A stretch of DNA of 64,000 nt from Escherichia coli. Lineage in GTDB: Bacteria > Pseudomonadota > Gammaproteobacteria > Enterobacterales > Enterobacteriaceae. The position numbers were made by a program. Shown here piece by piece: positions 30,001 to 33,000 of this stretch. The stretch lies in NCBI RefSeq assembly GCF_003334785.1, contig NZ_QOWV01000005.1. The stretch is one strand, 5' to 3'. The stretch's first letter is position 1; the number at the start of each line of letters is the position of its first letter.

Positions 30001-33000
30001 TTTACGCCAGAAACGACGATAAGCGTTAGGGGAGGTAGGAAGTGTGATGACGTTAAAAAAACACAGATATGATACGAAACAGGACTCTGAATAGGGGCAG
30101 TGATACGTATCAATATGAGTGGCGATAAAATCAATGTGATAAATTGGGATTATTACGCATCAGGATGGGAAATAGGGTAAAAAGTCAGGAAGTTCGATAC
30201 CTCTACAGCGAATATTTTGCTGATGATACTTCCCTTTGCCAAATGAAATTAACCTCTTTCTCTATTACCACGTTTTTCCAGAAGCAAGAGATTGGGTATC
30301 AAGAGGCTGGCTGCTATGATAAGGCGTCTTGTTTTTTAAGCGAGGAAAGATTTTGAGTGCGGGACGCCTGAATAAAAAATCTCTGGGTATCGTGATGTTG
30401 TTATCGGTTGGACTGCTTTTGGCGGGCTGTTCGGGTAGCAAATCATCCGATACAGGAACGTATTCCGGCTCCGTTTACACCGTGAAACGGGGGGATACGC
30501 TATATCGTATTTCGCGCACCACGGGAACCAGCGTAAAAGAACTGGCGCGACTGAACGGCATTTCCCCCCCTTACACCATTGAAGTTGGTCAGAAACTAAA
30601 ACTGGGTGGGGCGAAAAGTAGCAGTATTACACGTAAATCAACCGCCAAATCAACGACCAAAACCGCATCGGTTACACCGTCATCAGCGGTACCGAAATCA
30701 TCCTGGCCGCCAGTAGGGCAACGTTGTTGGTTATGGCCAACGACAGGGAAAGTTATCATGCCGTATTCGACAGCAGATGGCGGCAATAAAGGGATTGATA
30801 TCTCAGCTCCACGGGGTACACCTATTTACGCCGCGGGTGCAGGAAAGGTGGTGTATGTGGGCAACCAGCTGCGTGGCTACGGTAATCTCATCATGATTAA
30901 ACACAGTGAAGATTACATTACGGCTTACGCCCATAATGACACGATGCTGGTAAATAATGGGCAAAGCGTGAAGGCTGGGCAAAAAATCGCCACTATGGGG
31001 AGCACGGATGCGGCATCTGTTCGCCTGCATTTCCAGATTCGTTACCGTGCAACGGCAATTGATCCGCTACGTTACTTGCCGCCTCAGGGCAGCAAGCCAA
31101 AATGCTGATGGCGAATTAATCAGCAGTCAGCAGCGTGGCACTTGCTAAGGAGAGCGTAAGGTTTATAATGCCTTACGCATCTCGAAGCGGGCGTAGTTCA
31201 ATGGTAGAACGAGAGCTTCCCAAGCTCTATACGAGGGTTCGATTCCCTTCGCCCGCTCCAATTTATCTTCGCCGTAATACTTCCCCATTTTGTTGTAAAT
31301 AAAAAGCGTTTACGCAATGCAATCCTTTTGTAACAACCCAGGTAAAACACCTTATTTTCAAGTTGTTAAATAAGTGGTTATCTACGCTTTTAACAAACGA
31401 TTGATGGAATATTTTATGAAAGGGAAATCTGCATTAACTCTTCTGCTCGCTGGTATATTTTCGTGCGGCACATGCCAGGCGACAGGGGCAGAAGTGACGA
31501 GTGAATCTGTATTTAACATTCTTAATTCCACGGGGGCAGCAACAGATAAAAGTTATTTATCGTTAAATCCAGATAAGTATCCTAATTATCGTCTTCTGAT
31601 TCACTCAGCCAAATTACAAAATGAAATAAAGAGCCACTATACCAAAGACGAAATTCAAGGATTGCTAACATTAACAGAAAACACACGAAAGTTAACGTTG
31701 ACGGAGAAACCCTGGGGAACGTTTATTCTTGCTTCTACTTTCGAAGATGACAAAACAGCGGCAGAAACCCACTATGATGCTGTCTGGTTGAGGGATAGTT
31801 TATGGGGCTATATGGCATTAGTATCAGATCAGGGAAATAGTGTAGCCGCAAAAAAGGTTCTGCTCACCCTGTGGGATTATATGTCTACGCCCGACCAGAT
31901 TAAGCGGATGCAGGACGTCATTAGCAACCCAAAACGACTGGATGGAATTCCCGTGCAAATGAATGCTGTGCATATCCGATTTGACAGCAACTCCCCCGTG
32001 ATGGCAGATGTGCAGGAAGAAGGCAAGCCGCAGCTGTGGAACCATAAACAAAATGATGCTTTAGGTCTTTACCTTGATCTCCTTATACAAGCAATCAACA
32101 CTGGTACTATTAACGCTGAAGATTGGCAAAAAGGTGACCGATTAAAGTCGGTTGCGCTGCTGATTGCTTATCTGGATAAAGCCAATTTCTATGTTATGGA
32201 AGATTCCTGAGCATGGGAAGAAGATGCCCGATTAAACACATCTTCCGTTGCACTGGTGACCTCTGGACTGGAACGTTTGTCAAACCTACTCTCGAAGAAA
32301 GACTCTGTTTTTGTCTCTGATTTACTACGCGAAGCTAAAGTCAATGAACTGGATGAAACTCTTTCAACAACGAGGTTGAACCACCTCATAGATAAAGGTT
32401 ATGAAAGAATAACGTTACAGCTTGATTTAGGGGGAGAATCCCCAGGTTATCTGGAAAAAGATAAACATTACAGAGAAGCCGATGCGGCTTTACTTAATGT
32501 TATTTATCCTACAAATCTTTCAAAGATAAACACCAGAAGAAAAGAGCAAGTTCTAAAAATAGTTAAAAAACTAGCAGGTCCGTATGGTATAAAAAGATAC
32601 GAGAAGGATAATTATCAGTCGGCAAATTTTTGGTTCAATGATATTAAAACCGATACCGATCAAAATTCGCATGCAAAAAGAGAAAAGAGCTTCATTCCAT
32701 CAACAGAAGCAGAATGGTTTTTTGACTCATGGTATGCAAAATCAGCAGCAATTGTTTATAAAGAATCAAGAAAAGAAGAGTATTTGAATGACTCAGTACA
32801 ATTTATGAATAGATCATTGGCCCAAATAACAGGCGAGAATATGATTGGTGCAAATGGCAGGAGCGTACCAGAAATGGCACTTCCCGAAAGCTATAACTAT
32901 ATCCACAAGTCGGGAACTTTGCATGAAGCGCCAAGCCCTATCATTCCGCTAAATTGGTCGAAAGCTTCAATGACTCTCATGTTGAAAGAGATGTCCAACC

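What the first reader, a model, noticed from the sequence alone, without database searches (positions are those of the whole stretch)
32208..32258. Single in-frame TGA splits a secreted GH15-like ORF just before a WEE motif, with a hairpin right after it
Both halves are in one frame and the stop falls at ...YVMEDS * AWEED..., beside a W-E-E motif that in GH15 glucoamylases carries the catalytic acid. About 6 nt downstream is a hairpin (gaagatg ... catcttc). The simplest reading is a nonsense mutation. Because the flanking region is rich in selenium-linked enzymes I also considered stop-codon recoding; the hairpin loop does not look like a bacterial SECIS, so I score that low.
Basis: partly seen in the sequence, partly recalled or inferred. 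Interest (0 to 1): 0.45.

Follow-up and report, generated by a model that had tools for sequence, protein, structure and literature searches.

The report
Nonsense-mutated pkgA/ygeQ pseudogene in E. coli
The in-frame TGA is an ordinary G-to-T nonsense mutation that killed a glucoamylase-like gene (ygeQ/ygeP, also called pkgA) at the edge of the decaying ETT2 island of K-12-like E. coli, and nothing points to selenocysteine or other stop-codon recoding.

Summary
One TGA (32208-32210) interrupts an otherwise open 537-codon frame (31416-33026) just before a W-E-E motif. The window is E. coli: xdh / actS / tRNA-Gly glyU / ETT2 type III secretion island. The split gene is the known K-12 pair ygeQ (b2863) plus ygeP (b2862), called pkgA in O157.

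- **Ancestral codon.** Intact E. coli alleles carry GGA (Gly) here, E. albertii GGT and Yersinia GGG. This Gly is invariant in 25 homologues down to 37% identity.
- **Spread.** The exact TGA 81-mer is in about 950 complete E. coli genomes, including K-12. The GGA version is in about 1,650.
- **Further decay.** TGA carriers have lost or broken the 3' half independently (IS2-linked truncation, IS421, IS1). O157:H7 killed the gene separately with a 5-bp deletion.
- **Hairpin.** It is no more stable than shuffled sequence (z = -0.04). Such stems occur about once per 474 nt in the window. It sits in conserved codons, is identical in GGA alleles and is broken by synonymous changes in orthologues.
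- **SECIS.** Rfam finds none here, although the same search recovers the true fdhF SECIS at 87 bits.

Verdict: an ordinary, already annotated nonsense pseudogene within the known mutational attrition of ETT2. Interest is low.

The parts
31416..32210 (+). 5' fragment of the glucoamylase-like gene. It equals K-12 ygeQ (b2863), 264 codons plus the premature TGA, and carries an export or lipoprotein-type signal at the N-terminus.
   Evidence: Translation. The match in strains L9 and DH1 is 100% identical and annotated 'protein YgeQ' WP_000676919.1. MG1655 calls it 'putative lipoprotein YgeQ'.
32208..32210 (+). Premature TGA stop. It arose by a G-to-T change at the first base of an ancestral GGA (Gly265) codon.
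   Evidence: Alignment of the window, L9 and DH1 (TGA) against NB4833 and O157 (GGA). E. albertii has GGT and Yersinia GGG. Gly265 is invariant in 25 homologues. The exact-81-mer counts are about 950 genomes for TGA and about 1,650 for GGA.
32211..33026 (+). In-frame 3' remainder of the gene, ending at TAG 33024-33026. It starts with the W-E-E motif, is no longer translated from the ygeQ start, and corresponds to K-12 pseudogene ygeP (b2862), which is truncated there.
   Evidence: PGAP calls the stretch 'hypothetical protein' WP_000067509.1 in L9. MG1655 lists ygeP as a pseudogene next to IS2H.
32220..32245 (+). 7-bp inverted repeat (GAAGATG, 12 nt, CATCTTC) inside the codons for E-E-D...T-S-S. 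It is a chance feature of coding sequence and not a recoding signal.
   Evidence: z = -0.04. Such stems occur about once per 474 nt in the window. The sequence is identical in GGA alleles. Synonymous differences in E. albertii and Yersinia break it without compensation. Rfam gives no hit.
31187..31260 (+). tRNA-Gly(CCC) glyU, the chromosomal border of the low-GC ETT2 island. The broken gene is the first gene of that island.
   Evidence: ARAGORN and Rfam. GC falls from about 0.52 to 0.33-0.39 after this point. ETT2 is described as adjacent to glyU in PMC3977695.

Best explanation
The feature is a fixed loss-of-function nonsense mutation. In an ancestor of K-12-like E. coli, the first base of the Gly265 codon of pkgA changed from G to T (GGA to TGA). 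pkgA is the exported GH15 / phosphorylase-kinase-like glycosidase gene at the glyU end of the ETT2 island.

Translation now ends after residue 264. The stop falls two codons before the invariant W-E-E motif, which in glucoamylases carries the catalytic acid (Glu179 in Aspergillus glucoamylase; established knowledge). The product therefore lacks the acid, the rest of the (alpha/alpha)6 barrel and everything downstream.

The leftover 3' half is no longer under selection. The nearby hairpin is incidental.

Shown here: the ancestral codon, the spread of the allele and the secondary decay in carriers. Inferred: that no functional protein is made.
For: 1. **Single stop.** One in-frame TGA in a 537-codon frame.
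2. **Near-identical intact allele.** Strain NB4833 differs at 6 codons in 1,611 nt and has GGA here, giving a 536-aa 'glycoside hydrolase family 15 protein'.
3. **Outgroups encode Gly.** E. albertii has GGT and Yersinia GGG. Gly265, W267, E268 and E269 are invariant in 25 homologues down to 37% identity. The same G-x-W-E aligns to human phosphorylase kinase alpha and beta.
4. **The TGA allele is real and lineage-wide.** The exact 81-mer is in about 950 of 3,683 complete genomes that carry the site, including K-12 DH1 and BW25113. The GGA 81-mer is in about 1,650.
5. **The 3' half decays further in TGA carriers.** K-12 has an IS2-linked truncation, ESY001 an IS421 insertion and WS4437A-1 an IS1 insertion.
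6. **Independent inactivation elsewhere.** O157:H7 has a 5-bp deletion at the position equivalent to window 31974-31978.
7. **Neighbouring genes are also broken.** The YscQ, EscU, OrgA, LuxR-type and pbl-like genes of the island are frameshifted, truncated or stopped. This fits the 'widespread mutational attrition' of ETT2 cited in PMC3977695 and PMC7058095.
8. **No recoding signal.**
Against: No result here contradicts it, but three limits apply.

- In this window the 3' half is still intact. It shows one synonymous difference from the intact NB4833 allele and no amino-acid difference. The mutation is therefore recent, and relaxed selection cannot be shown from this sequence alone.
- Absence of a full-length protein was not measured. 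UGA is the leakiest stop in E. coli (general knowledge), so a small fraction of Trp-inserted read-through product cannot be excluded.
- PGAP still annotates the 264-aa fragment as a protein (YgeQ). Residual function of that fragment is untested.
Confidence: 0.95

Rival explanations
1. Selenocysteine recoding: the UGA is decoded as Sec by SelB and tRNA-Sec, guided by the downstream hairpin acting as a bacterial SECIS.
For: The UGA is followed within 5-9 nt by a stem-loop. The window also holds selenium-linked genes (ygfK, yqeB, yqeC, ygeY, xdh) about 1.5-20 kb away.
Against: - The homologous residue is an invariant Gly, never Cys or Sec, in 25 homologues and 3 outgroup DNA sequences.
- The TGA is confined to one E. 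coli sub-lineage.
- The hairpin has z = -0.04, is present unchanged in GGA alleles and is not conserved in orthologues.
- Rfam finds no SECIS at E up to 10 in 31900-32500 and none at gathering score anywhere in the window. The same search finds the genuine E. coli fdhF SECIS at 87.1 bits, E = 7e-19.
- TGA carriers repeatedly lose the downstream half.
- The selenium-linked genes lie in core chromosome across the glyU boundary, not in the low-GC island.
Confidence: 0.005
2. Functionally meaningful stop-codon read-through: near-cognate tRNA-Trp decodes the UGA and supplies a low level of active full-length enzyme.
For: UGA is the leakiest stop in E. coli, and K-12 strains carry a weak RF2 allele (general knowledge, not tested here). 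The downstream frame in this window is still open.
Against: - Read-through would place Trp, or another non-Gly residue, at an invariant Gly two residues before the catalytic W-E-E. It is unlikely to be tolerated.
- No stimulatory structure stands out.
- The 3' half is dispensable in many TGA carriers.
Confidence: 0.02
3. Sequencing or assembly error in this window: the gene is really intact.
For: A single base distinguishes TGA from GGA.
Against: The identical TGA 81-mer occurs in about 950 independent complete genomes, including K-12 MG1655-derived strains. RefSeq holds a dedicated protein record for the truncated product, WP_000676919.1.
Confidence: 0.005
4. The truncated 264-residue exported or lipoprotein fragment (YgeQ) has kept or gained a function of its own, so the stop is adaptive rather than plain decay.
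For: - The 5' fragment remains intact and identical in the TGA carriers looked at, while the IS insertions and the truncation seen there fell in the 3' half.
- Databases annotate it as a protein.
Against: - The fragment ends in the middle of the predicted (alpha/alpha)6 barrel and lacks the invariant catalytic motif, so it is unlikely to fold.
- Three events are too few to show any bias toward the 3' half.
- O157:H7 destroys the 5' part by frameshift.
- No functional study was found in the text searches.
Confidence: 0.02

Closest known systems
E. coli K-12 ygeQ (b2863) and ygeP (b2862)
   Same: The sequence is 100% identical over the shared 1,137 nt, with the same TGA at the same codon. The position is the same, right after glyU and actS.
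   Different: In K-12 the 3' half is also truncated at an IS2 element, which removed the adjacent ETT2 genes. This window keeps the whole 3' half and continues into the spaO/P/Q/R/S-like genes.
pkgA (ECs3736/ECs3737) of E. coli O157:H7 Sakai, named as a 'phosphorylase kinase and glucoamylase' homologue and speculated to be an ETT2 effector (PMC3977695, citing Pallen 2003 and Ren et al. 2004)
   Same: It is the same gene at the same end of ETT2, 98.8% identical, and is also split into two ORFs.
   Different: O157:H7 retains GGA at codon 265. It is broken instead by a 5-bp deletion about 230 nt upstream. The two inactivations are independent.
Intact 'glycoside hydrolase family 15 protein' alleles of E. 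coli (e.g. WP_000676938.1 in NB4833), E. albertii and Yersinia enterocolitica
   Same: They have the same length (526-538 aa) and the same motif, and in Escherichia the same synteny.
   Different: They carry a Gly codon (GGA, GGT or GGG) where the window has TGA.
GH15-like N-terminal domains of phosphorylase kinase alpha and beta subunits (PDB 8jfk, 8z5m), with GH15 glucoamylases and the 5z3a glycosidase series
   Same: These are the best sequence and fold matches. The D-x-G-x-W-E motif aligns.
   Different: Identity is only about 15-18%. The substrate and activity of the bacterial protein are unknown. This bears on what the gene once encoded, not on the stop codon.
E. coli fdhF UGA140 with its SECIS (Rfam RF01988)
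   Same: Both have an in-frame UGA followed closely by a stem-loop.
   Different: fdhF scores 87.1 bits against SECIS_2, whereas the ygeQ site scores nothing. No homologue of the ygeQ protein has Cys or Sec at the stop position.

Membership tests
Bacterial selenoprotein gene (UGA-Sec recoding) | A SECIS stem-loop immediately 3' of the UGA that SelB can recognise | tested here: not met
   There is no Rfam SECIS match at E up to 10 in 31900-32500 and none at gathering score anywhere in the window. The positive control, fdhF, gives SECIS_2 at 87.1 bits. The hairpin is no more stable than shuffles, z = -0.04.
Bacterial selenoprotein gene (UGA-Sec recoding) | Homologues carry Cys or Sec at the aligned position | tested here: not met
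   Gly is invariant in 25 homologues. The codons are GGA, GGT and GGG in intact E. coli, E. albertii and Yersinia.
Bacterial selenoprotein gene (UGA-Sec recoding) | The downstream reading frame is maintained by selection in genomes that carry the UGA | tested here: not met
   The 3' half is truncated or interrupted in TGA carriers: IS2-linked truncation in K-12, IS421 and IS1.
Bacterial selenoprotein gene (UGA-Sec recoding) | Selenium incorporation that depends on selA, selB, selC and selD | not testable with these tools
   This needs 75Se labelling or reporter assays.
Nonsense pseudogene (ETT2 mutational attrition) | A sense codon at the site in outgroups and in closely related intact alleles | tested here: met
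Nonsense pseudogene (ETT2 mutational attrition) | The truncation removes conserved, essential parts of the protein | tested here: met
   The stop precedes the invariant W267-E268-E269 and about half of the predicted barrel.
Nonsense pseudogene (ETT2 mutational attrition) | Independent disabling lesions in the same gene or island in other lineages | tested here: met
   O157:H7 has a 5-bp deletion. IS insertions are seen. Neighbouring ETT2 genes are frameshifted or truncated. The literature describes the attrition.
Nonsense pseudogene (ETT2 mutational attrition) | No functional full-length protein is made | not testable with these tools
   This needs an immunoblot or proteomics.
Glycoside hydrolase family 15 (clan GH-L, (alpha/alpha)6 barrel), applied to the intact ancestral gene | Sequence match to the family profile | tested here: met
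   Pfam PF00723 matches at E = 2.9e-5 over residues 94-401, a weak match. The only NCBIfam hit (TIGR01577, 15.2 bits) is far below its 820.7-bit cut-off.
Glycoside hydrolase family 15 (clan GH-L, (alpha/alpha)6 barrel), applied to the intact ancestral gene | GH15-type fold | tested here: met
   The model has mean pLDDT 87.3. Foldseek's top hits are phosphorylase kinase beta and alpha (E about 2e-9), the 5z3a-series glycosidase and fungal glucoamylases.
Glycoside hydrolase family 15 (clan GH-L, (alpha/alpha)6 barrel), applied to the intact ancestral gene | The catalytic general acid lies in the W-E-E motif | tested here: inconclusive
   W-E-E is invariant in the family and aligns to W-E in phosphorylase kinase alpha and beta. 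Residue-level superposition on glucoamylase Glu179 was not inspected. The assignment rests on established knowledge of Aspergillus glucoamylase.
Glycoside hydrolase family 15 (clan GH-L, (alpha/alpha)6 barrel), applied to the intact ancestral gene | Glycosidase activity | not testable with these tools
   No biochemical study was found.

The most novel reading that the evidence does not exclude
The most novel reading not strictly excluded is that the ygeQ UGA is partly read through in K-12-like strains whose 3' half is still intact, as in this window. That would give a trace of full-length exported glycosidase, or else the 264-residue YgeQ fragment has a function of its own. In either case the 'pseudogene' would be a down-tuned or repurposed gene rather than a dead one.
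Probability: 0.03. Interest if true: 0.3.

Novelty: already known. Interest (0 to 1): 0.05.

Why it matters
It matters little beyond correct annotation.

- **Annotation.** The ygeQ and ygeP pair of K-12-like E. coli is one gene (pkgA) killed by a GGA-to-TGA change. It should be annotated as a single pseudogene rather than as 'protein YgeQ' plus 'hypothetical protein'.
- **Marker.** The TGA is a convenient lineage marker.
- **Scan calibration.** An in-frame TGA near selenium-metabolism genes with a nearby stem-loop is not enough to suggest recoding.
- **Open biology.** What remains unanswered concerns the intact gene, not the stop. The substrate and role of this widely distributed, exported phosphorylase-kinase-like GH15 family are uncharacterised.

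Tried and rejected
1. **SECIS and recoding.** I folded 32208-32267 and scanned 31900-32500 against Rfam at E up to 10, which gave only a spurious U6 hit at E = 2.4. I also scanned the whole window at gathering score. The fdhF positive control worked. Recoding rejected.
2. **Hairpin conservation.** The arms differ in E. albertii (GAGGATG / CATCATC) and Yersinia (GAGGATG / CATCGTC) without compensatory change. A conserved structure is rejected.
3. **Collinearity with strain L9.** I assumed the window matched L9 end to end for annotation transfer. It does not: L9 has three extra IS-sized insertions and a 180-bp indel. Annotation was transferred only for the aligned blocks.
4. **Primary papers.** Attempts to read Ren et al. 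2004 (PMC415751) and Pallen 2003 (PMC2323967) failed because they are not held. Their content is cited only as reported in PMC3977695 and PMC7058095.
5. **Text searches.** Searches for 'ygeQ' and 'ygeP' returned nothing functional.
6. **NCBIfam.** The search gave no usable family assignment.
7. **Relaxed selection.** A test on the 3' half has no power. There is only one synonymous difference downstream of the stop against the closest intact allele.

Full report
**Where the window comes from.** It is Escherichia coli chromosome. A 1,611-nt query covering the split ORF matches 3,987 of 5,426 complete E. coli genomes, always on the chromosome, and is 100% identical to strains such as L9 and WS4437A-1. 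GC content drops from about 0.52 to 0.33-0.39 directly after glyU and recovers near 50 kb. This is the ETT2 island, which the literature describes as lying next to glyU, being low in GC, and having undergone widespread mutational attrition (PMC3977695 and PMC7058095).

**Checking the observation.** The sequence reads ...ATG GAA GAT TCC TGA GCA TGG GAA GAA GAT GCC CGA TTA AAC ACA TCT TCC..., with TGA at 32208-32210. Translating 31416-33026 in one frame gives 537 codons with this single internal stop and a terminal TAG. So the claims 'both halves in one frame' and 'YVMEDS*AWEED' are both correct. The inverted repeat GAAGATG (32220-32226) / CATCTTC (32239-32245) exists.

**Identity of the gene.**
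- In K-12 the 5' part is ygeQ (b2863, 'putative lipoprotein YgeQ', 264 aa). The 3' remnant is the pseudogene ygeP (b2862), which abuts IS2H.
- In O157:H7 Sakai the same gene is ECs3736/ECs3737, named pkgA for its similarity to 'phosphorylase kinase and glucoamylase'. It was speculated to be an ETT2 effector (PMC3977695, citing Pallen 2003).
- The intact 536-aa protein gives a weak Pfam GH15 hit (PF00723, E = 2.9e-5).
- A profile of 25 homologues matches the GH15-like domains of human phosphorylase kinase alpha (E = 7e-7) and beta (E = 1.2e-4).
- A confident AlphaFold model (mean pLDDT 87.3, pTM 0.89) has as its best solved-structure matches phosphorylase kinase beta and alpha, the 5z3a-series glycosidase and fungal glucoamylases.

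'Secreted GH15-like' is therefore a fair description of the ancestral gene.

- Strain NB4833 has an allele that differs from the window at only six codons: three synonymous, two conservative replacements, and this one. It reads GGA (Gly) and encodes the full-length protein.
- O157:H7 also has GGA. E. albertii has GGT and Yersinia enterocolitica GGG.
- In an alignment of 25 homologues reaching 37% identity (Commensalibacter, Elusimicrobiota, Bdellovibrionales, Bifidobacterium and others), G265, W267, E268 and E269 are all invariant. The same G-x-W-E aligns in phosphorylase kinase alpha and beta.
- Gly is therefore ancestral, and TGA is derived by a single G-to-T transversion. No homologue has Cys or Sec at this position.

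**Spread of the allele.** The exact 81-mer centred on TGA is found in 952 complete genomes, including K-12 DH1 and BW25113. The same 81-mer with GGA is found in 1,658. The remaining roughly 1,070 genomes carry further SNPs in the 81-mer, and every one sampled was annotated as a full-length GH15 protein. At most 38 of the matches in each search are partial. The TGA is therefore a genuine, inherited allele of one E. coli sub-lineage and not a sequencing error.

**Is the downstream half still needed in TGA carriers?** No. On the TGA background the 3' half is truncated beside IS2 in K-12, interrupted by IS421 in ESY001 and interrupted by IS1 in WS4437A-1. O157:H7 disabled the same gene independently with a 5-bp deletion at the position equivalent to 31974-31978. 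Many neighbouring ETT2 genes in this haplotype are frameshifted, stopped or truncated. This is the expected picture of pseudogene decay inside a decaying island.

**The hairpin and the recoding idea.**
- The 60 nt starting at the UGA fold to -12.5 kcal/mol against a shuffled mean of -12.39 +/- 2.54 (z = -0.04; 92 of 200 shuffles do as well).
- Perfect 7-bp stems with 3-15 nt loops occur 135 times in the window, about one per 474 nt.
- The arms lie in the codons for the invariant E-E-D and T-S-S residues, so their sequence is explained by coding constraint.
- The hairpin is identical in GGA alleles. Synonymous differences in E. albertii and Yersinia disrupt it without compensation.
- Rfam at a permissive threshold finds no SECIS around the site, and the gathering-threshold scan finds none anywhere in the window. 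The same permissive search on the K-12 fdhF gene recovers its SECIS at 87.1 bits, E = 7e-19, so the negative result is informative.
- The selenium-linked genes sit in core chromosome on the other side of the glyU island boundary and have no evident link to this horizontally acquired gene.

**Mechanism.** Translation from the ygeQ start terminates at UGA after residue 264. That is two residues before the W-E-E motif, which in Aspergillus glucoamylase contains the general acid Glu179 (established knowledge; residue-level superposition was not inspected here). The product lacks roughly half of the (alpha/alpha)6 barrel. Any background UGA read-through would insert Trp at an invariant Gly. The allele is therefore best read as a null. 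What is shown: the ancestral state, the distribution of the allele, the secondary decay, and the absence of any recoding signal. What is inferred: the absence of functional protein.

**Comparison with known cases, novelty and score.** The split is already represented in the K-12 annotation (ygeQ plus pseudogene ygeP). The gene (pkgA) and the attrition of ETT2 are in the literature. Nothing here is new beyond stating the exact lesion (GGA to TGA at Gly265) and its approximate frequency among complete genomes. I rate it 'already known', interest 0.05. The only residual novel reading is functional low-level read-through, or a function for the truncated fragment, at about 3% probability and modest interest.

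Noticed in passing
window 33027-33160 (between the end of the split gene and the spaO-like ORF at 33158-34105): Only a 120-nt remnant of a SpaN/EivJ-type needle-length gene is annotated here in the matching strains. In O157:H7 and E. albertii the gene is instead followed by a GhoT/OrtT-like toxin, an AraC-type regulator and the secretin sctC. This haplotype therefore carries a multi-kb deletion of the eiv/inv block of ETT2 right next to the pseudogene.
   Followed up: partly
window about 40760, about 44560 and about 48300: Compared with the otherwise 99.9%-identical strain L9, the window lacks three IS-sized insertions (about 1.33, 1.25 and 0.77 kb). 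L9 annotates IS2, IS3 and IS1 in that region. The window thus represents an ETT2 remnant less disrupted by IS elements than either L9 or K-12.
   Followed up: partly
window about 17818-17845 (yqeB-arcC intergenic region): There is a 180-bp length difference from strain L9, with a short overlapping match at the junction. It may be a repetitive intergenic element gained or lost.
   Followed up: no
window 33158-50000 (ETT2 remnant): Many island genes are annotated as frameshifted, truncated or internally stopped in the matching haplotype: YscQ/EpaO, EscU/EpaS, OrgA, a LuxR-type regulator (ygeK), a lytic transglycosylase (pbl) and ygeF. This fits general decay of the island.
   Followed up: partly
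window 60733-60814 and 60929-61016 (+): Two tandem OmrA/OmrB small RNA genes (Rfam RF00079, 86 and 97 bits).
   Followed up: no
homologues of the intact protein (P0001-P0120; alignments A2): The intact gene belongs to a widely distributed, uncharacterised family of exported proteins of about 500-560 aa, many with lipobox-like N-termini. Members occur in Yersinia, Commensalibacter, Elusimicrobiota, Bdellovibrionales, Bifidobacterium and others. More than 80 columns are invariant, and the nearest solved relatives are the phosphorylase kinase alpha and beta GH15-like domains rather than classical glucoamylases. The substrate is unknown.
   Followed up: partly
window 1-30000: The selenium-linked purine and molybdenum-hydroxylase cluster (ygfK, ssnA, ygfM, xdhD, mocA, yqeC, yqeB, ygeW/X/Y, hyuA, arcC, xdhABC) is present. 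No SECIS element reaches the Rfam gathering score anywhere in the window, so no selenoprotein gene is indicated here.
   Followed up: partly
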